64,000 nucleotides of DNA from Candidatus Hebobacterum abditum (GTDB lineage Bacteria; Armatimonadota; Hebobacteria; Hebobacterales; Hebobacteraceae): assembly GCA_029821875.1 (NCBI GenBank), contig JALGXW010000008.1, forward strand, positions 108,713-172,712. The letters run 5' to 3'. The first letter of the stretch is position 1, and every line of letters starts with the position of its first letter. The notes beneath the pieces are model-generated. The model was not told the DNA's origin. It made no database searches and saw nothing but the letters and a program-made list of their open reading frames with translations. Positions 21,065 through 60,300 of this stretch are shown here, in pieces. The translations under genes and the position numbers were made by a program.

Positions 21065-21170
21065 TCGTGACATAGCTCTGCCGAGCGCTCATGAAGTGGC
21101 GGCCGCAGAGAGACCGCCTGCCACACAGACCAGCCGCCGTGGCCTCAGCCACGGCGCGAGGAAGCCGACG

Positions 21171-23411
21171 ATGAAACGGACGAAGACGCGAAGCGATATG
21201 GTGTTTGTCCTCCCGCCTTCGGATAAGTTTGCGCCACTTCCCAACAGAGGAGTGCTCGCCGACGCCCTCGGGTCAGGCTACATCATTGCGTTTCTGAGAG
21301 AGAACGGCTTCGAGGCGGAGCAGATACTGTCAGCCAAGCCACTAAATGTCTCCCAATGCGTCAGCCACATCATGGCCAGGCGGCCGAGGGTCGTTGGGTT
21401 CACAGTCTACCAGACCAACTACAGTCTGTGCTTGCTCCTTGCGAGAGAACTCAGAGAAGTTGCTCCAGATCTGACCATCGTGTTTGGGGGGCCAACTCCG
21501 AGCGTGCAGTCCGAGACGATCTTGGCAAGGAACGACTGCGTCGATGTCTGCGTGAGAAACGAAGGTGAAGAAACGACTCTTGAGCTTCTGCGCGCCCTTG
21601 AGAGCGCCAACTTCCGCCTGGAAGAGGCAGATCTATCACCCATCAAGGGTCTGACCTACAGGAGCGGAAACGAGGTGCAGGTGAATGAGGCTCGGCATAT
21701 CTACCTCAACAACAGGAGCACGCCGGGTTTCCTCGACCGCTATCCATCGCCTTATCTGACGGGGGTGTTCCACAATTCCGAGCCGGGCGTCGTAACGGCG
21801 AGGGGATGCAACCAGAATTGCACGTACTGCAGCTGCGCTGTTCTTTCGGGGCGCGCCTTCGTCACCCATTCCATCGAACGGGTCGTCGAAGAGCTGGACT
21901 CCATTGCCGGGATTATGGGCGACCGGGATGAACTCGTGATCGTATATGATGATGCCTTCACCCTATTGCCAGCAAGGGCGCGCTCAATATGCCAGAAGCT
22001 GATTGAGAGCAACGTCGACGTGCGCCTAGGATGTATCACCAGGTGTGACAGGGTTGATGAGGAGTTGCTGGACTTGATGAAGGAGGCCGGCTTTGTCTCC
22101 GTCGGATTCGCGCTCGAAAGCGCCACGCCTCGGGTCTTGCGGAACATAGGGAAGGTCACTCGGCCCGATTCCTCGACTGATCCTACGTTCCAGGCGGAGG
22201 AATCGTTCATCGAGGCCTTCAAGAGAAACCTTCAACACACCAGGAGAATCGGCCTGCATGTGTACGCGAGCGTGATGGTCGGATTGCCGGGCGAGAGCGA
22301 GGAAGAGGGCCAAGCGACCATAGATCTCATAGAATCGCTCGAGGTCCCCCAGTATTCACACAACGTGCTCCAGATCTTCCCTGGGACGCCGCTGTGCCAC
22401 GACCACCGAAGGTATGGCATCAGAACGGAGGTTGCTGCTGACGGGATCACGCTCACTACCAGGCATGCCTATGATCCCTACAAGCTGGGGCACGCGCCCA
22501 ACTCAAACCATGAGCAATGGATCAAGGGTCACCAGAGGTACGACACGAAGGCGTTGTCGCTGTCATTGGAGCCAAGGGGCGGCGCGGTCTTCTTCAACAA
22601 TCTCGTCCTCTCGTCCGATAGCTGGGACGAGGCACTCCCTGAGTGGCTGGAGAAGTACCTTTCGGTCAACGGGAGAGTCATCCAAGTGTTCAGCAGTCTG
22701 AGCTCGGCATCGGACTGGTGGTCTCGGCCGGAAGTGTCGAAGAGCCCCACGAAAGGCTTCGCAGATCTGCCGACAGGATCGTACGGGCCGTACTACAAGA
22801 CTGCGACCGAGGATGGAACTCCCTGCATTCGCCCCTGCGCTGCCCACGTCTGGGGATTGCGGTGCGAGTACCCAGTGTACTTCGTCGATTCGAAGAGACT
22901 GCCCTTGTTGAACGGCGAGGACGTGACTTCCTTGAACAGTGTGTTCGTCGAAGAGGAGAAGACAGACGCGAACACCTTGTTCGGTCTGCTGATGGAGCTT
23001 TCGAAGACAGAGACCCAGGAGGGCATTTCCGGATTGCCTGCGATTCCCTACTTGCGGGGCTTGTGCAGATGGGATACGCAGCCTCCCAATTGCGTCAGTC
23101 TCGAAACAGTGATAGTCGACGCCGAGGCCAATGTCAGGCCGTGTTGGCACGCCGAGCCCATCGGCAAGGTTGGCATGCCTTTCGACGAACTGCGCCAAAA
23201 CCTCCGTCGTTTACGCGGCAGGGCCGAAGAGGAGCGCGGGTGCAGGACCTGCGGGGAAAACGACACCTGCGTCAAATGTCCCTCGCCCGCTCCCCTATCG
23301 GACGAGGAGTACTGCAGACTGAGGGCCGGATATCCAGTCGAAGAGGCCGCTTCCACAGCCAGGAACCTGAAGATACTGGAAGAGTCTTTCCTGCCGTATA
23401 CGATGCTCTAG
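21171..23411 (+). CDS. B12-binding domain radical SAM protein with a long Cys-rich C-terminal (SPASM/twitch-like) extension
   Basis: The N-terminal cobalamin-binding Rossmann-like region (VVGFTVYQTNYSLCLLLARELREVAPDLTIVFGGPTPS) is followed by the radical SAM motif CNQNCTYC (CX3CX2C). A ~300-aa tail carries about 10 Cys including CRTCGENDTCVKC (CX2CX5CX2C). RBS GAGGAAG. Low GC relative to flanks. Confidence 0.75.
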   Translation: MKRTKTRSDMVFVLPPSDKFAPLPNRGVLADALGSGYIIAFLRENGFEAEQILSAKPLNVSQCVSHIMARRPRVVGFTVYQTNYSLCLLLARELREVAPDLTIVFGGPTPSVQSETILARNDCVDVCVRNEGEETTLELLRALESANFRLEEADLSPIKGLTYRSGNEVQVNEARHIYLNNRSTPGFLDRYPSPYLTGVFHNSEPGVVTARGCNQNCTYCSCAVLSGRAFVTHSIERVVEELDSIAGIMGDRDELVIVYDDAFTLLPARARSICQKLIESNVDVRLGCITRCDRVDEELLDLMKEAGFVSVGFALESATPRVLRNIGKVTRPDSSTDPTFQAEESFIEAFKRNLQHTRRIGLHVYASVMVGLPGESEEEGQATIDLIESLEVPQYSHNVLQIFPGTPLCHDHRRYGIRTEVAADGITLTTRHAYDPYKLGHAPNSNHEQWIKGHQRYDTKALSLSLEPRGGAVFFNNLVLSSDSWDEALPEWLEKYLSVNGRVIQVFSSLSSASDWWSRPEVSKSPTKGFADLPTGSYGPYYKTATEDGTPCIRPCAAHVWGLRCEYPVYFVDSKRLPLLNGEDVTSLNSVFVEEEKTDANTLFGLLMELSKTETQEGISGLPAIPYLRGLCRWDTQPPNCVSLETVIVDAEANVRPCWHAEPIGKVGMPFDELRQNLRRLRGRAEEERGCRTCGENDTCVKCPSPAPLSDEEYCRLRAGYPVEEAASTARNLKILEESFLPYTML

Positions 23412-46782: not shown

Positions 46783-48894
46783 GTGAAGCGATGCCTGCTC
46801 GCGCTGGTGGTAGTGGCCGCTCTGGCGTCGGTCTGCCAGGCCGACAAGATGCTCTTCGATTTCGAGGATCCCGCCGGGCCGCCGGCCCTGGAGACCAACG
46901 CCGCGGAGGCGACGCTCGCTCCGGCGCCGTCGGGAGAGGGCCAGGCACTCCGGCTCATCGCCTCGGAGGGAAGATGGCAGTCCGTCAGCTTCCCGGCGGA
47001 GGAGCCCTGGGACTGGAGCGGCTACACCGGCCTGGCGGCGGAGGTCACCAATCCGGGCGTCAAATCGGTGGAGGTGTTCATCAGCGTGGGGAATCCGCCG
47101 GAGGAGGGGAAACAGCGCGGCCCCATGAATGCGGCGTGGCAGTCGGTGGGCGCAGGTGAGACGATCATGCTCGCGCTGCGCTTCAACACCGGCGACGAGG
47201 GCGCGCTGTGGGGGATGCGCGGCTACCCGATCATCGACGGGTACCCGACCGGGCCGGCCTGGGGCGGGGTGATCGATCTGTCCAAGATCGCCTCCCTCGG
47301 CGTTGGGCTCGGGCGGGGCGGAGCCGGAGATGAGGTACTCGTCGACAACATCCGCCTCTGGGGCGGGCCCGACTCGCCGGTCGAGGAGATCCCGCCCTTC
47401 GCCGATCGCTACGGGCAGTACGCCCTGCAGGACTGGCCGGGCAAGGTCGAGAGCGATGAGGACCTGGCGGCACAGCGAGAGGCCGAGCGCGAGGAGCTGG
47501 ACCGGGCGGTTCCGCTGGCGGACCGCGACGAGTACGGCGGGTGGACGGCCGGCCCGCAGTTGGCGGCCACCGGCTGGTTCCGCACGGAGAAAGTAGATGG
47601 GAAGTGGTGGCTCGTCACACCGACGGGACACCTCTTCTTCTCCAGCGGCATCGACGTCGTGCTGCCGGGCCAGCAGACCTTCATCACCGAGCGTGACCGA
47701 TACTTCGAGTGGCTGCCCGAGCGCGACGGCATCTTCGCCGAGTGCTTCGGCTTCGACCCCAATCCCCTCAACCACGCCGGGCCGCTGGAGGACACCGGCG
47801 GCGACACCTTCAACTTCTACCGCGCCAATCTGATCCGCAAGTACGGAGAGGCCTGGGCCGAGCCGTGGAGGCAGGTGACCTACGACCGGATGAGCGCCTG
47901 GGGCTTCAACACCATCGCCGGCTGGTCCGAGGAGGCGGTGTACCACAACTCGCCCCATCCCTTCGCGGTGTGCGTCTGGATGTCGGGTGAGGAGCGGCCA
48001 ATCGAGGGGGCCTATGGCTACTGGCAGCAGATGCCCGATGTCTACGACCCCTCCTTCGATGAGGAAGTGGACCGCGTGATGCGCGAGGCCGGCGCGAAGT
48101 TCGCCGACAATCCCCGCTGCATCGGCTACTTCTTCGAGAACGAGATGTCGTGGGGAGGGGACGGCAGCTTCAACATCGCCGCCGGCACGCTGCGCTCTCC
48201 GGCCGACCAGCCGTGCCGCCGGGAGTTCGTGCGCGCCCTCGAAGAGAAGCACGGCTCCCTCGACGCCGTCAACGCCGCCTGGGAAACCGAGGCGGAGAGC
48301 TGGGACGATCTGCGCGCACCCGACGAGCCCAACGAGGCCTGCGCGGAGGACCTCCGCGCCTTCACCTACGAGTATTCGCTGGAGTACTTCCGCAAGGTGC
48401 ACGCTGGTATGGAGCGGCACGCGCCACACCAGCTCGACCTGGGCTGCCGCTTCGCCTGGGCCAACCGGGAGAGTATACGCGCCTGCGCGGAGGTGGCGGA
48501 CGTGGTCAGCTTCAACATCTACCGGCCCCGCGTCGACGCCGAGCGCTGGGCCCATACCGCCGAGCTCGGCAAGCCCTGCATCATCGGGGAGTTCCACTTC
48601 GGCGCCCTCGACCGCGGCTCACTGCACCCCGGGCTGGTGGAAGTCAGCGACCAGGACGAGCGGGCGGAGATGTTCATCGACTACGTCCACAGCGTGCTCG
48701 ACGTGCCCGCCTTCGTGGGCTGCCACTGGTTCCAGTACGTGGACGAGCCGCTCACCGGCCGCACGCTCGACGGCGAGAACTACAACATCGGCCTGGTGAC
48801 GGTCACCGATACGGTGTTCCCCGAGCTGATCGCGGCCGCCCGGAAGGTGCACGAGGACATCTATCCTCGCCGCTACCACGGCGCCGCCGACTAG
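46783..48894 (+). CDS. Secreted TIM-barrel glycoside hydrolase, GH50 (agarase)-like / clan GH-A, with an N-terminal beta-sandwich domain
   Basis: Signal peptide MKRCLLALVVVAALASVCQA (GTG 46783, 7 nt from AGGAGG). Motifs GFNTIAGWSEE, FFENEMSWGG, IIGEFHFGA and CHWFQYVDEPLTGRTLDGENYNIGLV resemble GH50/GH42-type barrels. Confidence 0.45.
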   Translation: MKRCLLALVVVAALASVCQADKMLFDFEDPAGPPALETNAAEATLAPAPSGEGQALRLIASEGRWQSVSFPAEEPWDWSGYTGLAAEVTNPGVKSVEVFISVGNPPEEGKQRGPMNAAWQSVGAGETIMLALRFNTGDEGALWGMRGYPIIDGYPTGPAWGGVIDLSKIASLGVGLGRGGAGDEVLVDNIRLWGGPDSPVEEIPPFADRYGQYALQDWPGKVESDEDLAAQREAEREELDRAVPLADRDEYGGWTAGPQLAATGWFRTEKVDGKWWLVTPTGHLFFSSGIDVVLPGQQTFITERDRYFEWLPERDGIFAECFGFDPNPLNHAGPLEDTGGDTFNFYRANLIRKYGEAWAEPWRQVTYDRMSAWGFNTIAGWSEEAVYHNSPHPFAVCVWMSGEERPIEGAYGYWQQMPDVYDPSFDEEVDRVMREAGAKFADNPRCIGYFFENEMSWGGDGSFNIAAGTLRSPADQPCRREFVRALEEKHGSLDAVNAAWETEAESWDDLRAPDEPNEACAEDLRAFTYEYSLEYFRKVHAGMERHAPHQLDLGCRFAWANRESIRACAEVADVVSFNIYRPRVDAERWAHTAELGKPCIIGEFHFGALDRGSLHPGLVEVSDQDERAEMFIDYVHSVLDVPAFVGCHWFQYVDEPLTGRTLDGENYNIGLVTVTDTVFPELIAAARKVHEDIYPRRYHGAAD

Positions 48895-48922
48895 CTGCAG
48901 CCGTACAGACCGACGCTCGCGC

Positions 48923-49324
48923 CTACGCGCCTCCGCCCAGGAGGCCGGCGACGACGTTCAGCACCTTCTCGCGATCGAAGGGCTTGGGAAGGTACTCGTC
49001 GGCTTCGGCTCTCATCACACCGTCGATCGGGTACTTGCTGTCCGTGATGTGGTCGGCGACCGCGGTGACCAGGACGACCGGAATATCTTGGGTGTCGGGC
49101 GATGACTTCAGCTTGGCGCAGGCCGCGAAGCCATCCATCTCCGGCATCATCACATCCAGCAGAATGAGATCGGGGCTCTCCGAGGCGGCCTTCTCCAGCG
49201 CCTCGACGCCGTTCTCGGCCGTGACGACCTGGTAGCCGGCCGGCTCGAGGATCATGGCGAGCGCGTTGAGGATGTCCCGGTCATCATCCACCGTGAGGAT
49301 CTTCTTCTGTCCGTCATCACCCAT
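48923..49324 (-). CDS. Stand-alone CheY-like response regulator receiver domain
   Basis: ILTVDDDRDILNALAMILEPAGYQVVTAENGVEALEK...DLILLDVMMPEMDGF...LPKPF. Start at 49324 with a GGAGG RBS; the upstream ORF extension was rejected. Confidence 0.75.
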   Translation of the reverse strand: MGDDGQKKILTVDDDRDILNALAMILEPAGYQVVTAENGVEALEKAASESPDLILLDVMMPEMDGFAACAKLKSSPDTQDIPVVLVTAVADHITDSKYPIDGVMRAEADEYLPKPFDREKVLNVVAGLLGGGA

Positions 49325-49397
49325 CGTGGTACCTCCGTTGAGTTCGACTCTGTCTAAGTTCTCTGCCGCGAGACCCCGTGGGGCTGCTCCCGGACAT

Positions 49398-49436
49398 GGT
49401 GATACGTCTCCGTGGTACGTCTTGGTGATACGTCCC
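49398..49436. promoter_or_regulatory. Three direct repeats (TGGTGATACGTCT / CGTGGTACGTCTT / GGTGATACGTCC) at ~13-bp periodicity upstream of the response-regulator gene
   Basis: Seen directly, 75-110 nt upstream of the minus-strand start at 49324. The spacing fits helical-phase binding by a dimeric or tandem regulator. Confidence 0.4.
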
Positions 49437-49862
49437 TCTTTGAGTTCGCAGTATGGGAGCGTCGGTCCTGCCCCGAGAGGCAGGGCCGTGTGCTGGGAGA
49501 GCCGACCTCGGAGAAGCGCTGGCTGGCAGCATCGCTCTGCAAGCACGTGAGGTTACAGCAAGCACGACGCAGAGCAGTCGCTCGCCATGCCTTCGCTTTG
49601 AGGGCCGTCCGGCCGTTCTGACCGTTGGGCAGCAGCTTGCTGCTGCCACTCCACCCGCGCCCTGACAGCGCACCCGGGGCGATCGCAGGAGAAAGCCGCC
49701 GGAGGCGGCCAAGGCTCCCGCGCAACAGGTGTCGGGCGAATCCCTTGGTGGGGGTCCTGCCGGCGATCAGTCGCGTGTTTCGGAAGCCCCGGGGTCAGGA
49801 GGGCTAGCACTCCCGCTGGGCGAACACCTAGCGAAGAGTCTATCGGGTTGGGGGAATCTCGA

Positions 49863-50438
49863 ATGATGCACGTGGGCCTCGACATCGACGGTGTCCTCTG
49901 TGACCATGTTGCCGGTCTGTGCGAGAGGATAGAGCAACGATACAGAATTGCTCTTCGGCCGGCCATGGTCACCGAGTGGGACCTCGACTTCGGCCCGAGT
50001 TCAGTTGCCAAGGAACTGAGAAGCGCCTACCGGGACAGAGACTTTGTGCTCTCCCTTCCGCCGCTGGAGGGCGCCCAGTCGGCCGTGTGCGCCCTGGCGG
50101 CCAGCAACATACTCGCGCTTGTCGCAGTGACGTCAAGACCCCTTGAGGCCAAGTCGGCCACGGACGATTGGCTGAAGCGCTACTTCCCGGGGATTCCCGT
50201 CCGCTACGCCTCAAGGAAGGAGAGTCTACCTATCGATGCGCTTGTGGACGACTTCCCGCTTTTCGTCGAGCGGTTCGCGGCGGCCGGGAGGAAGGCGGTG
50301 CTATTCTCCCGGCCGTGGAACGTCAAAGATCAGGGCCGTCTTCGAGCGAAGGCGGGAGTCACGGTCGCAGCGAACTGGAGCGACGTTGTGCGTCTGATCA
50401 CAGGAATGTCGCAGCGGAGTGCACAGCGCGCGGGCTAG
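49863..50438 (+). CDS. HAD-superfamily 5'(3')-deoxyribonucleotidase-like (NT5C/YorS-like) protein
   Basis: MMHVGLDIDGVLCD (HAD motif I DxDGV), DDFPLF (motif IV-like). 190 aa. Lower GC than the genome background. Confidence 0.5.
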   Translation: MMHVGLDIDGVLCDHVAGLCERIEQRYRIALRPAMVTEWDLDFGPSSVAKELRSAYRDRDFVLSLPPLEGAQSAVCALAASNILALVAVTSRPLEAKSATDDWLKRYFPGIPVRYASRKESLPIDALVDDFPLFVERFAAAGRKAVLFSRPWNVKDQGRLRAKAGVTVAANWSDVVRLITGMSQRSAQRAG

Positions 50439-50462
50439 AGAGCCAGGCCTCGGGAGGGGGAC

Positions 50463-51011
50463 ATGAACAACCGCAAGGCGCTGCCGGGCCGTGTCGTTGG
50501 CTTCGTCGACATGGTGTTCGCTGTCATCATCGGTGTAAGCCTAACGGGCTACTTCGACGCCTTGAAGCGGGGCGAGGTCACACTGTGGTCGTTTGAGACT
50601 TGGACACTGGGCCTGACCTACCTCGCCATTGTCTACAGTTGGGTCGGTTACCACAAGTCCATTGAACGTCGCCCACATACCGACAAGATCGGCGTGGCCC
50701 GGTTCGCAGTTGACCTCGTCATACTGCTCGTCTACTTCGTGCTCGTGTACTTCTTCGACGACTTCGGGCTGATCATCCAAGCCTTCGCCGTGCTCTTCGC
50801 GCTGTACCTTGGTTGGGGCGTCCTCAAGATGTGGGAGCACCGAGCGTGGGACGAGTGGAAACGATACGCGTGGCGCGTGCCATCGCTCGCGGTATGCCTG
50901 CTCGTCGCCGGTTGCTGGAGGGCGGGTATTCGATTCGAGTGGCCCGAGGGATGGCACGTGTTCCCTCTGCTGACGCTCGTCCTGTCTGTGTACTGGTACC
51001 GGCGATTCTGA
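50463..51011 (+). CDS. Hypothetical 4-TM membrane protein
   Basis: RBS GGGAGGGGGA. Hydrophobic segments VVGFVDMVFAVIIGVSL, TLGLTYLAIVYSWVGY, VDLVILLVYFVLVYFF, LIIQAFAVLFALYLGW. No family recognised. Confidence 0.55.
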   Translation: MNNRKALPGRVVGFVDMVFAVIIGVSLTGYFDALKRGEVTLWSFETWTLGLTYLAIVYSWVGYHKSIERRPHTDKIGVARFAVDLVILLVYFVLVYFFDDFGLIIQAFAVLFALYLGWGVLKMWEHRAWDEWKRYAWRVPSLAVCLLVAGCWRAGIRFEWPEGWHVFPLLTLVLSVYWYRRF

Positions 51012-51243
51012 GCCAAAGCATCCCGGTGCGCCACACGGCGTGAGGCAAGCTTCTGCTCGACGAACTCTCGTATGGCACTGGAGGAGATGGCAGGCGCCGG
51101 AGTCCTGCCCCTCGATCAACGGGGGCGGCGCTTCGTTTCTTCGCCTTCCTGTCGCTTCGGGAGCGTGCTGCCCCAACGACGACGTCTGGACAACCAGCAC
51201 TTGGCCGGCTATCATGGATTCAGCCTTGAGGGGAGGTCCCGAC

Positions 51244-52614
51244 ATGGCCACAGAGGCCGATCGCAGAGAGACTCAGCTGCGACGTTCCGACATCATCCTC
51301 CTGACTGGGGCCGGTGCCTCAGTGCCCCTGGGTCTCCCGGACACGAGGCAGCTCATGGATCACCTCGTGGGGCTCCGGAGCGACCTGGAGGGTTTCCTCA
51401 AACGCATCATCCAGAGCCACGAAGGTGGGGTGCCCGACATCGAGTGGATTCTGGAACGCCTCGACCTATACGAGGATATCGACCGTGAGCTCCAGGCCGA
51501 CCAGAACCTCAGCCGCGAAGCCGAGCGGACAGTCAAGGATGTGGTGAAGCGGTGTGCGGACGCCGCCGAGCGCGTCAGGTCCGCGTTCCCGAAGTACGAA
51601 GCCGTCGAGGAAGACGCGTCACTCGGAGCTCCCACCACGTTGCGTGTGTCTGGGCTTGCCGAGCTCAGTCCGGATTCGGGTCTGGTGGCGACGCCTGTGC
51701 CGCAAGATCTGATCTCTGGGGTGCCTCTAGAGCAGGAGCCCAGTACGGTCGCGTGGGTGCCCTCCACATCTTCCCCGACCTTACGACGACGTCAGGTCAA
51801 ACCACCAGCCTTCGAGCCTGATGTGGACGAGAAACAGCTCGCGATGGCGATGTTCGGCACTGTCACCGACCAAGCCAGGCGCCTGCGGGACGCGGTCTAT
51901 GACAATATCATCCGGATATACAACAAGGTCGATCCCGAGCTAGTCGGTGCCCTCTATGGGCCGTTGATCTTGCCTCTGTGGGAGTACTGCCAGGGGGTCA
52001 GCAGTCGCCTGACTGTTTTCACGACAAACTGGGACCCGACGTTCTACGCACTGAAGGACGTTACAGACCTGCCCATCATCGCAGGTATGACCCAGGGGGC
52101 CTATGACTCGCATTGGGACCCGGCCGTCTATCGGCAAGAAGGCCTCCATGTTCACCACTTGCACGGCTGCTGTCGCTGGGTGATGGGCGGAGAGATCGGT
52201 GGACAGATAGTCTACAACCCGCTGCCACTGCAGGGCACCACGCAATCCGAGTACGAAGTACCAGTCCTCTACAGACCGAGGACGAAGGCGGGGCTCGTCC
52301 TGCAGGAGCCTCACGCGACAGCATATGCGTTCCTCGATAGGGCCGCGACGACCCCTGCCGTCTGGATCGTCGTCGGATACTCGTTCCGCGATGAGCCGAT
52401 CCAGCGGGTGCTTGAGCGCGCAGCAGTTCGCGGGACCATCAGCAAGCTCATAGTGCTTGACCCAGTGAAGGAGCCCGCAGTTCCGGAGGAGTTACAGGCC
52501 GCAATGGCACACTCGAGGTACGAGTTCGGGGACCCTGACGGGACGCGGTCTGTCCTCGCCGCCTTCTTCGATGCCGTGAAGGACGAGGGGGACGCGGCCT
52601 CAGATGGCTCGTAG
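51244..52614 (+). CDS. SIR2_2-like (DUF4020-type sirtuin-like) protein, stand-alone
   Basis: N-terminal IILLTGAGASVPLGLPDTRQLMDHL and C-terminal VWIVVGYSFRDEPIQRVLE are the two hallmark motifs of the SIR2_2 family found in ThsA/DSR-type defence proteins. 456 aa with a low-complexity central insertion. RBS GAGGGGAGG. Confidence 0.55.
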   Translation: MATEADRRETQLRRSDIILLTGAGASVPLGLPDTRQLMDHLVGLRSDLEGFLKRIIQSHEGGVPDIEWILERLDLYEDIDRELQADQNLSREAERTVKDVVKRCADAAERVRSAFPKYEAVEEDASLGAPTTLRVSGLAELSPDSGLVATPVPQDLISGVPLEQEPSTVAWVPSTSSPTLRRRQVKPPAFEPDVDEKQLAMAMFGTVTDQARRLRDAVYDNIIRIYNKVDPELVGALYGPLILPLWEYCQGVSSRLTVFTTNWDPTFYALKDVTDLPIIAGMTQGAYDSHWDPAVYRQEGLHVHHLHGCCRWVMGGEIGGQIVYNPLPLQGTTQSEYEVPVLYRPRTKAGLVLQEPHATAYAFLDRAATTPAVWIVVGYSFRDEPIQRVLERAAVRGTISKLIVLDPVKEPAVPEELQAAMAHSRYEFGDPDGTRSVLAAFFDAVKDEGDAASDGS

Positions 52615-52620
52615 GCCGCC

Positions 52621-52635
52621 TCCGGCGGCTTGCTG
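52621..52635 (+). terminator. Palindrome GCCGCC-TCC-GGCGGC followed by TTGCTGTTT after the SIR2-like gene
   Basis: Seen directly, 7 nt after the stop. Confidence 0.35.
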
Positions 52636-52739
52636 TTTACCCTGACCCCTGCCGAAGGGCCGAAGCCCGGTCTTCGCCCTCACCCCTCCCAACTCTCGCG
52701 CCGCGAGGCAGGGGTGTCAAGGAACGCGTAGCGCGGCCC

Positions 52740-53267
52740 CTACTGCGCGCCGAAGCTGGGCTTCGTGGTCTCCCAGCTCGCGGTGCCTTTGGCGAAGCCG
52801 TAGTTGTTGCCGCCATTGTGGCGCGCCGGTGTCACCACATCGTCCGGCCCGCCGGAAGGGTTGTCACCCGGGCGGGCGGTCTCGTAGAAGAGCACCGTGG
52901 ACTCCGGGTCGGCGATGTCCTCCAGCACCTTCCCGCTGAGGGCGGCGTTCATGGCGTAGCTGCATCGGGCACCCGACTGGTCCCCCGCGCACTTGAGCAC
53001 ATCCGCCCTGTCCGGAAGGTAGGACTTGAAGTCATCCGCCCACGTCGCGGCATTGGGCAGGCGCCCCCCGTGGTCCCACGACCACATCTGCGCGGCGAGG
53101 GCGAGGTTCTTCACGTTCGAGATGCACCTGGCCTTGTCTGCGACGGCGGTTGATCTCTCCACAACCGGCCGCACCGTCTCCGCGGTCTGCCGCACGGTCT
53201 GGTAGGCGACGAACACCACAACCACCACGACGGCGATGATCACGAGCCACAGCTTCCAGCCCTTCAT
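52740..53267 (-). CDS. DUF1559 (H-X9-DG) domain protein with an N-terminal TM anchor and no prepilin motif
   Basis: MKGWKLWLVIIAVVVVVVFVAY..., CISNVKNLALAAQMWSWDHGGRLP and ARHNGGNNYGFAKGTASW. Confidence 0.65.
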   Translation of the reverse strand: MKGWKLWLVIIAVVVVVVFVAYQTVRQTAETVRPVVERSTAVADKARCISNVKNLALAAQMWSWDHGGRLPNAATWADDFKSYLPDRADVLKCAGDQSGARCSYAMNAALSGKVLEDIADPESTVLFYETARPGDNPSGGPDDVVTPARHNGGNNYGFAKGTASWETTKPSFGAQ

Positions 53268-53529
53268 GGATCGGCCCCCTTTGCCGGAGAGTCCTGCGCC
53301 TCGGGTATGACGCGAGATCGCGTCCCTCAGCTTAGTTCGCAGGCCGGAAGCACGCTCCTCCTCTGCGAGCTGAGGGGCTCACCGGCCCTCGGAGCGGGGG
53401 CACGCCCTACAGGCAGGGAAGGACAGAGCGGCCTGTCGTTGAATAAGGAGGTGCTGGTCGAGCGCTGCAGTCTGCCAGGGTCCTCGCGTCGAGAAGTATC
53501 CTCAGAACAGCCGTCTGTGGGGGGAAGAC

Positions 53530-55056
53530 ATGGTCGGGCCACGTGTACGAAGTGCGTTCGTAGTGTCCCTCGCCGGTATGCTTGCTGTGTGCGCGTTCGC
53601 CGGTTGGGCCGTTCCGGAGGTCACGCCCACGAATGATCCCAGCAACGTGCAGACATGGGACGAGCTGCTGCCGGAGCTGGCAGCCCATTGCAGGCGAGCG
53701 GCCGTCGTCATCGAGTCCCGCCGCGGGATACGCGGCGGCCAAGGGAGCGGGGTGATCGTCGATCCCTCGGGGAAGGTCCTCACCGCGCATCACGTCGTCG
53801 AGGGCGCGGAGTCGGTGCTCGTGAAGCTGTGGAACGGCGGCTACCTCCCGGCCGAAGGCTACCTCGGGCTGAACCCGGAGACGGACTGGGCGCTGCTGCG
53901 CGTCCGCGGCGTGGAGCTTCCCCATGTCCCCATCGGGGACTACACCGAGATGAGGCCCGGCGACAAGGTGCTCGTCATCTCCGCGCCCGCCGGCCTGGAA
54001 TACACCGTGTCGGAGGGGATCATGAGCGCGGTCCGGCGCCTGGGCGATATCGAGATCCGCTTCCGGAGGGATCTGCTCAAGTTGGGGTTCTCGGAGGAGT
54101 GTCGGCTGATTCAGTTCTCGGCCCCGATCGCCCCGGGCAGCAGCGGCGGGCCGGTGTTCAACTCGAAGGGGGAGGTGGTCGGGCTGGTCGTGCTGCGGCA
54201 TCGGGCGGACAACGTCTACTTCGCGACCCCGGCCAACCAGGCCCTGCCGCATATGGCGACCGAGAAGGTCATCGCGTTCGACGCCATGGACCTCAGCGCT
54301 ATCGGCGGCCAGAAGATAGATACGGGCCGGAATCCCTCCTCCGTAGGCCGGGTCGAACCCGTGAGGGCTGAGGCCCACGCGAGCGTACCCGCGAAGCAGG
54401 TGTCGGTGGTTCGGCTCGACCACGGACGCTTCGTTGTGCCCGACTCGGTGAAGGTCTACGACAGGGATACCGGAGAGGAGCTTCGCGGCGTCGATCGGGC
54501 GCCCGCGGTGGGGCAGTTCCGGTCGGTGAGCGGCGGCCGCGTCTACTTCAACGAGGCGGATCGGGGGAGGCGGCTGCGGGTGGTCTACGACTACCGCGTC
54601 GAACGAGTGGCCGTGCTCCCACCGGTGAACGTCGGTGATATCCGTGAGTTCACGGAGATGCTCGCCGAGAAGCTCCATACCGAGTTCACCAGCCGCGGCT
54701 ATGAGCTGGTGCCGGATGCGGAGGTCGAGGCCGCCATCTACGCTCTCGATGTGCGCCTGCTCCCGGACAGGAACGCGCTCGATGAGTCGCTTCGCCCGGA
54801 AATGGTGCGCCGGCTGGCGGCCGAGATCGACGCCAGGTACATCCTGTTCACCGTCGTCACGAATGCGGAGAGCTACGGCGCAGACGTCTACTTCTGCGCG
54901 CTGGACGGCCACACCGGCGAGGCCGCGTTTACTGTACGACGGGCAGAGGGGCTGCACGAGGCCAGGAAGCTCTTCAGCAGCCGCGGGAAGCAGAGACGGA
55001 ACAACCTGCACCGGGTCGTGGAGAGAATCGTGGCCGACTTCCTCGACGCCGACTAA
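53530..55056 (+). CDS. Trypsin-like (S1C/DegP-type) serine protease with a ~250-aa C-terminal extension
   Basis: Signal/TM, catalytic His (VLTAHHVV), Asp (DWALLRV) and Ser (GSSGGPVF). RBS GGGGGGAAG. Confidence 0.7.
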   Translation: MVGPRVRSAFVVSLAGMLAVCAFAGWAVPEVTPTNDPSNVQTWDELLPELAAHCRRAAVVIESRRGIRGGQGSGVIVDPSGKVLTAHHVVEGAESVLVKLWNGGYLPAEGYLGLNPETDWALLRVRGVELPHVPIGDYTEMRPGDKVLVISAPAGLEYTVSEGIMSAVRRLGDIEIRFRRDLLKLGFSEECRLIQFSAPIAPGSSGGPVFNSKGEVVGLVVLRHRADNVYFATPANQALPHMATEKVIAFDAMDLSAIGGQKIDTGRNPSSVGRVEPVRAEAHASVPAKQVSVVRLDHGRFVVPDSVKVYDRDTGEELRGVDRAPAVGQFRSVSGGRVYFNEADRGRRLRVVYDYRVERVAVLPPVNVGDIREFTEMLAEKLHTEFTSRGYELVPDAEVEAAIYALDVRLLPDRNALDESLRPEMVRRLAAEIDARYILFTVVTNAESYGADVYFCALDGHTGEAAFTVRRAEGLHEARKLFSSRGKQRRNNLHRVVERIVADFLDAD

Positions 55057-60191: not shown

Positions 60192-60240
60192 CGGAGCTCC
60201 GTCCCTCAGCCGCGTAGACGGCGACTGTCCTCCCTCCGAC

Positions 60241-60300
60241 TGACGTTTCGGGAGCAAGGCGCCGGAGGCGCCCAAGGCTCCCGAAAGACCGTCAGAATCG
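60241..60300. repeat. Hairpin CTGACGGTCTTTCGGGAGC...GCTCCCGAAACGTCAG enclosing GCCGGAGGCGCCCAAGGCTCCCG; the inner 23-bp motif recurs at 49700-49727
   Basis: Seen directly, between family C copy 60326 and the membrane-protein gene start. Confidence 0.4.

What the first reader, a model, noticed from the sequence alone, without database searches (positions are those of the whole stretch)
49325..52740. Second lower-GC island: HAD/NT5C-like 5'-nucleotidase, 4-TM membrane protein and a stand-alone SIR2_2-like protein (candidate anti-phage defence locus)
A 456-aa protein carries both signature motifs of the defence-associated SIR2_2 family (GAGxS...GLP near the N-terminus; VGYSFxD near the C-terminus). 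It is far shorter than DSR1/DSR2 and has no TIR, HerA or Argonaute partner in the window. It is co-directional with a small 4-TM protein and a deoxyribonucleotidase-like HAD phosphatase. The trio sits in DNA with lower GC than the surrounding sugar-utilisation genes. It is preceded by a 520-bp non-coding stretch and followed by a palindromic terminator. Sirtuin-like NADase effectors are established in Thoeris, DSR and SPARSA systems. A SIR2 + membrane protein + nucleotidase combination is not one I recognise as a named system.
Basis: partly seen in the sequence, partly recalled or inferred. Interest (0 to 1): 0.65.

Follow-up and report, generated by a model that had tools for sequence, protein, structure and literature searches.

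The report
Solitary SIR2-like gene, not a trio
The three genes are real, but they are two unrelated acquired modules lying side by side: a conserved nucleotidase plus membrane-protein pair, and a rare stand-alone sirtuin-like gene that is probably an NAD-destroying enzyme and resembles the enzyme half of a known two-part anti-phage system without its partner.

Summary
All three genes exist at the stated coordinates: an NT5C-type HAD phosphatase, a multi-pass membrane protein and a 456-aa SIR2-like protein. Their GC3 is 0.74-0.79 against 0.85-0.91 in the flanking genes.

The 456-aa protein belongs to the SIR2_2 family. Its own Pfam score is just below threshold, but 69 of 70 relatives match the model. 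The GAGAS, TTNxD (N262), LHG (H307) and GYSFRD motifs are conserved. A pLDDT-86 model matches the SIR2 subunit of SIR2-HerA (Nezha) best.

Of 94 loci carrying relatives of the SIR2 gene, only the near-identical copy of this same locus also has NT5C or the membrane protein. NT5C plus the membrane protein recur as a pair in three other independent contexts without SIR2.

Homology to a close relative ends about 90 bp after the membrane gene. A hairpin, a promoter-like site and then the SIR2 gene follow.

The SIR2 subfamily is very rare: 4 representatives at E≤1e-30 among 1.84 billion. It is solitary in all four contexts, low in GC3 in each, and has no HerA.

Most likely it is a horizontally acquired single-gene NADase. 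A defence role is inferred, not shown. Interest is modest.

The parts
49325..49862 (.). 538-bp non-coding spacer between the divergent response-regulator gene (48923-49324, - strand) and the NT5C gene
   Evidence: No ORF with a coding-like GC3 pattern. No Rfam match. No remnant of the 200-aa membrane-protein gene that precedes NT5C in relatives.
49683..49722 (.). REP-like nested hairpin. Its core 18-mer AAGCCGCCGGAGGCGGCC lies at 49693-49710.
   Evidence: An exact inverted copy lies at 52614-52631. A third copy, 91% identical, lies at 60251-60283 and has compensatory stem changes. On the - strand it folds at -27.6 kcal/mol, z -3.9.
49863..50438 (+). NT5C-family HAD phosphatase (5'(3')-deoxyribonucleotidase-like), 191 aa
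   Evidence: Pfam PF06941 at 4.8e-19, above the cut-off. The DIDGV motif I, and the VTSR and VDD segments that I assign from my own knowledge of HAD phosphatases to motifs II and IV, can be read in the sequence. Homologues of 58-71% identity lie directly upstream of a homologue of the membrane protein in L008/9, L010 and L033.
50463..51011 (+). Multi-pass membrane protein of unknown function, 182 aa, 4-6 TM. It starts 24 bp after NT5C and is probably co-transcribed with it.
   Evidence: No Pfam family above threshold; only a weak YijD/DUF1422 similarity. Hydropathy profile. Five homologues found in the word-indexed search of 5.8 billion proteins. Adjacency to NT5C is conserved.
51098..51135 (+). 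Terminator-like hairpin at the point where homology to the relative L011 ends (about 51100). This is the inferred left edge of the SIR2 cassette.
   Evidence: Window 50990-51099 aligns to the L011 spacer (about 85% identity over the matched 107 bp) and then diverges. L011 continues into a 200-aa membrane-protein gene instead. Hairpin found by the scan and folding at -23.7 kcal/mol.
51187..51215 (+). Sigma-70-like promoter candidate, TGGACA-17-TATCAT, 29 nt upstream of the SIR2 start codon
   Evidence: It is the only promoter-like site in 48800-53400 and matches 10 of 12 positions. This is a consensus match only. A GGAGG motif lies about 8 nt before the ATG.
51244..52614 (+). Solitary SIR2_2-family protein, 456 aa. 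It has a Rossmann core, an enlarged helical subdomain and a disordered loop at residues 130-173.
   Evidence: N262, D264, G308, G378, R382 and D383 are invariant across 70 relatives. GAGAS and H307 are conserved in at least 90% of them.
52611..52633 (+). Hairpin overlapping the SIR2 stop codon. It is the inverted copy of the REP-like core and a probable terminator.
   Evidence: A similar GCC(T)GCC-TCC-GGC(A)GGC hairpin follows the SIR2 homologue in L012.

Best explanation
The region is a small composite of two independently acquired modules, not one system.

Module 1 (49863-51011) is a two-gene operon: an NT5C-type deoxyribonucleotide phosphatase and a 4-6-TM membrane protein. The pair is conserved on its own in related bacteria. 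Its role is unknown; I infer a role in deoxynucleotide or nucleoside handling.

Module 2 (about 51100-52634) is a single-gene cassette with a hairpin in front, a promoter-like site and a hairpin behind. It encodes a solitary SIR2_2-type sirtuin.

Shown:
- It belongs to the SIR2_2 family by profile, conserved motifs and predicted fold.
- The NAD-binding GAGAS loop and the catalytic Asn262 and His307 are conserved.
- Its closest solved relatives are the SIR2 subunits of SIR2-HerA (Nezha).
- It has no HerA and no recurring partner in any of four genomic contexts.
- It is a GC3 outlier in all four contexts.

Inferred:
- It works as an NAD+ glycohydrolase.
- It is held inactive until a trigger changes its oligomeric state, as happens in other SIR2_2 enzymes (SIR2-HerA dodecamers, ThsA and FAM118B filaments, DSR2 tetramers).
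- The enlarged helical subdomain or the subfamily-specific loop acts as the built-in sensor or regulatory surface.
- NAD+ depletion then aborts phage infection.
For: SIR2 identity.
- PADLOC SIR2 models match at 1.5e-9.
- A profile of the family against PDB sequences gives 8yhx_G 'SIR2 family protein' at 1.5e-23. The TTNYD and HG motifs align to those of the solved protein.
- 69 of 70 relatives match Pfam SIR2_2.
- N262, D264, G308, G378, R382 and D383 are invariant.
- The model has pLDDT 85.8 and pTM 0.80.
- The top 37 Foldseek PDB hits are all SIR2 subunits from SIR2-HerA (Nezha) entries, at E about 1e-10. KomC, ThsA, DSR2 and SPARSA follow.
- N and H are the residues whose mutation abolishes Nezha immunity (PMC11559045).

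Separateness of the two modules.
- 94 SIR2-bearing loci were checked, and only the near-identical copy of this locus (L001) also has NT5C or the membrane protein.
- The subfamily contexts L002-5, L012 and L022 have unrelated housekeeping neighbours and no conserved flanking ORF.
- The NT5C + membrane pair occurs without SIR2 in L008/9, L010 and L033.
- A homology breakpoint lies at about 51100, with a hairpin and a promoter-like site after it.

Acquisition.
- The SIR2 gene has GC3 of 0.72-0.75 in all four genomes, against 0.82-0.92 in the flanks.
- The family occurs in at least two different lineages, including an Armatimonadetes MAG.

Defence association of the wider family.
- Distant relatives sit next to HerA (7 of 10 viral-contig loci), DNA methylases, integrases, AAA ATPases and second SIR2 genes.
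Against: - No experiment links this subfamily to NAD+ hydrolysis or to phage defence.
- Its own Pfam score is below the gathering cut-off.
- Its neighbours here and in L012, L022 and L004 are housekeeping or sugar-utilisation genes, not defence islands.
- In Nezha the SIR2 subunit needs HerA for immunity. A HerA-less relative may therefore be inactive, or may be regulated in a way I cannot see.
- The promoter and terminator calls are consensus matches only.
- Co-transcription of all three genes by read-through cannot be excluded.
Confidence: 0.6

Rival explanations
1. One reading: NT5C, the membrane protein and SIR2 form one three-gene anti-phage system. For example, an NADase effector could work with a membrane effector or sensor and a nucleotide-degrading enzyme.
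For: The three genes are co-directional, are all lower in GC3 than the flanks, and are bracketed by an exact 18-nt inverted repeat. In L033 the NT5C + membrane pair follows a dGTPase-family protein (PADLOC 2.7e-55). The pair therefore lies next to a nucleotide- or NAD-degrading enzyme of a kind used in defence in two independent contexts.
Against: The combination occurs nowhere else. None of the 93 other SIR2-bearing loci has NT5C or the membrane protein, and none of the 5 other independent contexts of the membrane protein has SIR2. A 232-bp spacer holds a homology breakpoint, a hairpin and a promoter-like site. PADLOC has no match for NT5C or the membrane protein. The bracketing repeat is a member of a hairpin family that also occurs at 60251-60283.
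Confidence: 0.07
2. The SIR2 gene is a decayed or orphaned remnant of a SIR2-HerA (Nezha) system that lost HerA and no longer works.
For: Its closest solved structures are Nezha SIR2 subunits. Distant relatives in viral contigs keep HerA directly downstream. Nezha SIR2 needs HerA.
Against: Four subfamily members at 41-53% identity, from different lineages, are all full-length, all lack HerA, and all keep every catalytic and NAD-binding motif. That pattern means purifying selection on a HerA-independent protein. No HerA remnant is found in the window or in the flanks.
Confidence: 0.1
3. The SIR2_2 protein has a non-immune cellular role, such as NAD+/ADP-ribose signalling, protein ADP-ribosylation or deacylation. 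Its odd composition simply reflects an old transfer.
For: It is flanked by housekeeping genes in all four contexts, with no defence island. SIR2_2 proteins with non-defence settings exist, for example vertebrate FAM118A/B (PMC12700824).
Against: It lacks the zinc module needed for deacetylation: the protein has only four Cys and no CxxC pairs (see also PMC12700824). It is extremely patchy in distribution, with 4 representatives at E≤1e-30 among 1.84 billion. It is a GC3 outlier everywhere. These are the hallmarks of accessory, mobile genes.
Confidence: 0.2

Closest known systems
SIR2 subunit of the SIR2-HerA (Nezha / Gao_19) anti-phage system (PDB 8sub, 8uae, 8wld, 8yhx, 8j4u)
   Same: It is the best sequence-profile match (1.5e-23) and the best fold match (E about 1e-10, TM 0.5-0.64 on the target length). 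Both have the SIR2_2 Rossmann core plus a helical subdomain. The TTNYD Asn and HG His align.
   Different: No HerA lies adjacent or anywhere in the 64 kb, nor in the three other contexts of the subfamily. The identity shown in the Foldseek alignments to these chains is only 9-18%. The protein carries an inserted loop that is disordered at residues 130-173. In Nezha, HerA is required for immunity.
DSR1 / DSR2 (defence-associated sirtuins, single-gene systems)
   Same: It is a single-gene arrangement built on a SIR2_2 NADase domain. DSR2 appears among the fold hits (8wya).
   Different: The aligned DSR2 chain 8wya_E is 919 residues, and DSR1/DSR2 carry a large C-terminal sensor region (my own knowledge). 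This protein is 456 aa and has nothing beyond the SIR2 domain and its insertion.
ThsA (Thoeris) and SIR2-APAZ (SPARSA)
   Same: They share the SIR2_2 catalytic domain. PADLOC Argonaute-associated SIR2 models give the best PADLOC scores. ThsA and SPARSA are weaker fold hits.
   Different: There is no SLOG, Macro or APAZ domain (Pfam finds only SIR2_2). The adjacent genes are not a TIR gene or a short pAgo.
Vertebrate FAM118A/B, partner-less SIR2_2 sirtuins of about 350 aa
   Same: Both are stand-alone SIR2_2 proteins without a zinc module. FAM118B is regulated by homo-oligomerisation into filaments and processes NAD (PMC12700824). It is a precedent for a SIR2_2 enzyme that needs no dedicated partner gene.
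   Different: FAM118A/B form a different, vertebrate-specific clade. I made no direct sequence or structure comparison here.
NT5C / mitochondrial and cytosolic 5'(3')-deoxyribonucleotidases (Pfam PF06941)
   Same: The first gene matches over nearly the whole model, positions 2-174 of 180, at 69 bits. It keeps the DxDxV catalytic motif.
   Different: Here it is paired with a conserved multi-pass membrane protein of unknown function. PADLOC, Pfam and NCBIfam do not describe that pairing.

Membership tests
SIR2_2 (Pfam PF13289; 'SIRim' sirtuins) | Match to the family profile at or above the curated cut-off | tested here: inconclusive
   The window protein scores 22.6 bits against a cut-off of 24.5. 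Its 46%-identical homologue in L012 scores 27.6 bits. 69 of 70 aligned relatives match at E≤1e-3.
SIR2_2 (Pfam PF13289; 'SIRim' sirtuins) | NAD-binding glycine-rich loop (GAGxS) and catalytic Asn and His | tested here: met
   GAGAS is at residues 22-26, N262 lies in TTNWD, and H307 lies in LHG. N262 is invariant, and H307 and GAGAS are conserved in at least 90% of 70 relatives. They align to TTNYD and HG of PDB 8yhx_G.
SIR2_2 (Pfam PF13289; 'SIRim' sirtuins) | Sirtuin Rossmann fold with a helical small subdomain and no zinc-binding module | tested here: met
   The model has pLDDT 85.8. Foldseek probability is 1.00 to SIR2 chains from Nezha, KomC, ThsA, DSR2 and classical sirtuins. The protein has only four Cys and no CxxC pairs.
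SIR2_2 (Pfam PF13289; 'SIRim' sirtuins) | NAD+ glycohydrolase activity | not testable with these tools
   This needs an enzyme assay.
SIR2-HerA (Nezha / Gao_19) | SIR2 gene adjacent to a HerA (DUF87/HerA_C) ATPase gene | tested here: not met
   The neighbours are a membrane protein upstream and a 175-aa protein on the - strand downstream. A HerA profile built from 7 true partners gives no hit at E≤10 in any of the 568 ORFs of the window. L012, L022 and L004 also lack HerA.
Thoeris | ThsA with a SLOG or Macro sensor domain, plus a ThsB TIR gene | tested here: not met
   Pfam finds only SIR2_2 in the protein. No TIR protein is among the neighbours scanned.
DSR1/DSR2 | Single large protein with an N-terminal SIR2 and a long C-terminal sensor region | tested here: not met
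   The protein is 456 aa, and the SIR2 core spans residues 15 to about 450.
SPARSA (short pAgo + SIR2-APAZ) | SIR2 fused to APAZ and encoded next to a short Argonaute | tested here: not met
   There is no APAZ region, and the adjacent genes are not Argonautes. PADLOC Aga_SIR2 models match the SIR2 core only, at residues 247-412.
Proposed SIR2 + membrane protein + NT5C three-gene system | Recurrent co-occurrence of the three genes in other genomes | tested here: not met
   Only 1 of 94 SIR2-bearing loci has NT5C or the membrane gene, and that locus is the near-identical copy of this one. None of the 5 other independent contexts of the membrane protein has SIR2.
NT5C (Pfam PF06941) HAD phosphatases | Profile match above the cut-off and the HAD motif I DxDxT/V | tested here: met
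   The match scores 69.4 bits against a cut-off of 24.8. GLDIDGVL can be read near the N-terminus.

The most novel reading that the evidence does not exclude
The rare HerA-less SIR2 subfamily (window, L004, L012, L022) is a self-contained, minimal single-gene NAD+-depleting defence system. Its enlarged helical subdomain and subfamily-specific loop (disordered at residues 130-173) would replace HerA or the DSR sensor as the trigger-recognition element. A more speculative addition: the neighbouring NT5C + membrane-protein pair is itself an uncharacterised mobile deoxynucleotide-depleting module. It tends to lie beside nucleotide- or NAD-degrading enzymes: SIR2 here, and a dGTPase-family protein in L033.
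Probability: 0.3. Interest if true: 0.55.

Novelty: new member of a known kind. Interest (0 to 1): 0.3.

Why it matters
If the solitary protein is an active, regulated NADase, it would be one of the smallest sirtuin-type immune effectors. It would show that the Nezha-type SIR2 scaffold can work without its HerA motor. That would help define which part of SIR2_2 enzymes senses infection.

The practical lesson for genome scans is different. Here, co-directional genes inside a low-GC patch are a mosaic of separately mobile modules. Synteny across relatives must be checked before a 'system' is named.

The conserved NT5C + membrane-protein pair is a small, previously undescribed linkage. It is worth recording for anyone studying deoxynucleotide metabolism or nucleotide-depletion immunity.

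Tried and rejected
1. The exact 18-nt inverted repeat that brackets the three genes first looked like the terminal inverted repeats of a mobile cassette. I rejected this as a specific boundary signal. Each arm is itself a hairpin, and a third related copy with compensatory stem changes lies at 60251-60283. It is therefore a REP-like, terminator-type element family. It may still mark a recombination-prone spot.

2. I looked for a decayed copy of the 200-aa membrane-protein gene, which accompanies NT5C and the membrane protein in relatives. I searched the 538-bp, 232-bp and 125-bp spacers and found nothing.

3. I tested whether the 870-aa HD/dGTPase protein upstream of NT5C in L033 carries a SIR2 domain, which would have revived a SIR2-NT5C link. 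It does not: hhalign probability is 0.1.

4. An Rfam scan of the spacers found no match.

5. The first structure prediction used 6 sequences and was too poor to use (pLDDT 58). I replaced it with a 70-sequence alignment.

6. The first metagenome scan, with the membrane-protein alignment, returned nothing.

7. I searched the flanks of the four subfamily members for a conserved small partner ORF and found none shared with the window.

8. Literature searches for NT5C together with 'phage defense', and for the assembly accession, found nothing.

9. The longer GTG-started ORF, 51040-52614 (524 aa), was rejected as the gene start. Its extra N-terminus overlaps DNA that is homologous to a non-coding spacer in L011 and has no counterpart in homologues.

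Full report
**What is in the sequence**

The window is high-GC (mean 0.658). Three co-directional genes lie at the reported coordinates.
- An NT5C-type HAD phosphatase runs 49863-50438.
- A membrane protein runs 50463-51011.
- A 456-aa protein runs 51244-52614.

These gene calls match those of an almost identical NCBI contig, L001 (GCA_029821855.1). It differs from the window by 4 SNPs in 6180 bp.

The flanking genes are a response regulator (48923-49324, - strand) and a 175-aa protein (52740-53267, - strand).

The region's GC is 0.630. Only 6.6% of equal-sized windows are as low, and all the others lie at 19-25 kb. GC3 is 0.74, 0.79 and 0.75 for the three genes, against 0.85-0.91 in the neighbours.

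The upstream 538 bp has no coding signal and no Rfam match. A 10-bp hairpin overlaps the SIR2 stop codon. The observation therefore stands, with two small corrections. The membrane protein has four strong and two weaker hydrophobic segments. The protein's own Pfam SIR2_2 score, 22.6 bits, is just below the 24.5 cut-off.

**Is the 456-aa protein a SIR2?**

Yes, on several independent lines of evidence.
- PADLOC SIR2 models match at up to 1.5e-9.
- A profile of six homologues hits the PDB chain 8yhx_G, 'SIR2 family protein', at 1.5e-23. This chain is the SIR2 of a SIR2-HerA complex (PMC11514289). TTNYD and HG align with the corresponding motifs of that chain.
- An exhaustive HMMER search of 1.84 billion representatives gives 441 relatives at E≤1e-3.
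- Of 70 aligned relatives, 69 match Pfam SIR2_2.
- N262, D264, G308, G378, R382 and D383 are invariant. GAGAS and H307 are conserved in at least 90% of the 70.
- With that alignment AlphaFold gives pLDDT 85.8 and pTM 0.80. The model has a Rossmann core, an enlarged helical subdomain (about residues 46-115 and 196-251) and a disordered loop at 130-173.
- The top 37 Foldseek hits against the PDB are SIR2 subunits from SIR2-HerA (Nezha) entries, at E about 1e-10. KomC, ThsA, DSR2, SPARSA and classical sirtuins follow.
- The protein has four Cys and no CxxC pairs. This fits the absence of a zinc module that typifies SIR2_2 enzymes (PMC12700824).

**Is it part of a three-gene system?**

No. The word-indexed search of 5.8 billion proteins found only five non-self homologues. 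The exhaustive search found only four representatives at E≤1e-30. I examined the contexts of these close relatives.

| Relative | Identity | Locus | Neighbours |
|---|---|---|---|
| P0002 | 53% | L002-5 | an unrelated ORF upstream; a xylose-isomerase-like TIM-barrel gene on the other strand |
| Armatimonadetes MAG copy | 46% | L012 | a beta-helix protein and RNase HII |
| P0012 | 44% | L022 | GHMP kinase and an NTP transferase on one side; an RND efflux pump on the other |

No flanking ORF or DNA is shared between these contexts and the window.

I then checked all 94 fetched loci that carry a SIR2 relative. Only L001, the same sequence as the window, also has NT5C or the membrane protein.

The reverse test gives the same answer. 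The membrane protein has five homologues. Wherever the upstream DNA is visible, an NT5C gene of 58-71% identity sits directly in front of it, 24-36 bp away or overlapping. This holds in L008/9, L010 and L033, and none of them has SIR2. A second, 200-aa membrane protein accompanies the pair in L008, L010 and L011 but is absent from the window.

**The junction**

L011 carries a membrane protein 72% identical to the window's. The window aligns with L011 from the end of the membrane gene through position 51099 (about 85% identity over the matched 107 bp) and then diverges. L011 runs on into the 200-aa membrane-protein gene, whereas the window runs into the SIR2 gene.

A hairpin followed by a T-rich stretch (51098-51135) sits exactly at this breakpoint. 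The only sigma-70-like site in the region, TGGACA-17-TATCAT at 51187-51215, lies 29 nt before the SIR2 start codon.

The SIR2 gene with its flanking hairpins, about 51100-52634, therefore behaves as a separate cassette. It is either inserted beside the NT5C/membrane operon or has replaced the gene that follows that operon in the relative.

**Composition points the same way**

The SIR2 gene has GC 0.62-0.63 and GC3 0.72-0.75 in all four host contexts. The flanking genes have GC3 0.82-0.92.

In L008 and L010, the module made of the 200-aa membrane protein, NT5C and the multi-pass membrane protein has GC3 0.70-0.77 next to flanks at 0.92.

Both modules thus look foreign wherever they are found. 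The 'island' in this window is two of them side by side.

**The bracketing inverted repeat**

An exact 18-mer, AAGCCGCCGGAGGCGGCC, lies at 49693-49710 (+) and 52614-52631 (-). These are its only two exact copies in 64 kb.

Each arm is itself a hairpin. A third copy at 60251-60283 is 91% identical to the left arm and has compensatory changes in the inner stem. I read this as a REP-like, terminator-type element family rather than transposon ends. It could still mark a recombination-prone site.

**How the SIR2 protein most likely works**

Shown: it is a SIR2_2 fold with an intact NAD pocket and the Asn/His pair. That pair is essential in Nezha (PMC11559045).

Inferred: it hydrolyses NAD+. SIR2_2 enzymes are typically switched on by changes in assembly, as in SIR2-HerA dodecamers and in ThsA and FAM118B filaments. 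This subfamily has no partner gene, so I expect it to be regulated by its own oligomerisation. The enlarged helical subdomain or the subfamily-specific loop would be the surface that senses a trigger.

A defence role is supported only indirectly.
- The distribution is extremely patchy.
- The composition is foreign in every host.
- The wider family sits beside HerA (7 of 10 viral-contig loci), DNA methylases, integrases, AAA ATPases and second SIR2 genes.

Several points count against a defence role.
- The neighbourhoods here and in L012, L022 and L004 are housekeeping genes, not defence islands.
- Nezha SIR2 needs HerA.
- No HerA is found anywhere in the 64 kb.

**The NT5C + membrane pair**

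NT5C keeps the HAD motif I (DIDGV) and matches the deoxyribonucleotidase family over nearly the whole model. The membrane partner has no family assignment beyond a weak YijD/DUF1422 similarity. PADLOC has no match for either.

In L033 the pair follows an 870-aa protein whose C-terminal half matches PADLOC's dGTPase model at 2.7e-55. Its N-terminal half is not a SIR2.

In one other contig an NT5C homologue lies beside an integrase and a DNA methylase.

This hints at a link with deoxynucleotide catabolism and with variable regions, but it rests on single contexts.

**Comparison and verdict**

The protein works like, and is structurally closest to, the SIR2 subunit of SIR2-HerA. It fails the defining feature of that system, an adjacent HerA. 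It also fails the defining features of Thoeris, DSR1/DSR2 and SPARSA.

It is best filed as a new, rare, solitary member of the SIR2_2 sirtuins. The three-gene 'system' is an accident of adjacency.

Interest is modest.

Noticed in passing
window 49683-49722, 52611-52633, 60240-60295: A family of G+C-rich nested hairpins with core AAG(C/G)CGCC-GGA-GGCG(G/C)CC. Two exact inverted copies bracket the three genes. A third copy (-36.6 kcal/mol, z -6.3) has compensatory stem changes. It looks like a REP-like or bidirectional-terminator element of this genome.
   Followed up: partly
window 21096-23411 (+): The 'first low-GC island' is a single 771-aa gene with B12-binding and radical SAM domains (GC3 0.73). 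Residues 59-447 match the PADLOC candidate model PDC-M51A at 4e-16, probably through the shared domains.
   Followed up: partly
L008 350-2446; L010 128-2197; L011 85-1115: A conserved module made of a 200-aa membrane protein (no Pfam family), NT5C and the multi-pass membrane protein. Gene order varies: the 200-aa gene comes first in L008 and L010 and last in L011. The module's GC3 (0.70-0.77) is far below that of its flanks (0.92).
   Followed up: partly
L033 195-4389: An 870-aa HD protein lies 370 bp upstream of an overlapping NT5C + membrane-protein pair. Its residues 443-808 match PADLOC dGTPase at 2.7e-55, and its N-terminal half carries a DPPW motif. A radical SAM gene follows the pair.
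   Followed up: partly
L025, L027-L032 (viral contigs): Seven of ten distant SIR2_2 relatives (21-25% identity) in IMG/VR contigs have a gene of one conserved neighbour family directly downstream. The one member scanned with Pfam (L027) is a HerA (DUF87/HerA_C). These appear to be SIR2-HerA pairs carried by viral or proviral contigs.
   Followed up: partly
L013 6030-11778; L015 7255-10726; L006 8991-12601: Other arrangements around about 350-aa SIR2_2 relatives. L013 has a DNA methylase followed by two SIR2_2 genes about 400 bp apart. L015 has a split AAA ATPase (AAA_15/23 + AAA_13) followed by SIR2. L006 has DUF5677 + SIR2 + an overlapping 259-aa ORF, a second SIR2 on the other strand and an RHS protein.
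   Followed up: no
L061, L070, L076; L057, L085, L089: Some distant SIR2_2 relatives are followed on the same strand by a small membrane protein: YdjM-family in one group and weakly holin-like in another. They are unrelated to the membrane protein in the window.
   Followed up: no
L012 11430-11450 versus window 52611-52633: The hairpin after the SIR2 homologue in the Armatimonadetes MAG (GCCTGCC-TCC-GGCAGGC) resembles the window's (GCCGCC-TCC-GGCGGC), including the TCC loop. The two proteins are only 46% identical.
   Followed up: no
window 53530-55056 (+): A 508-aa trypsin-like (Trypsin_2) protease with a weak FlgT_M-like C-terminal region. Its protease domain gives weak PADLOC matches (RT-Protease, LmuA) that probably reflect only the shared fold.
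   Followed up: no
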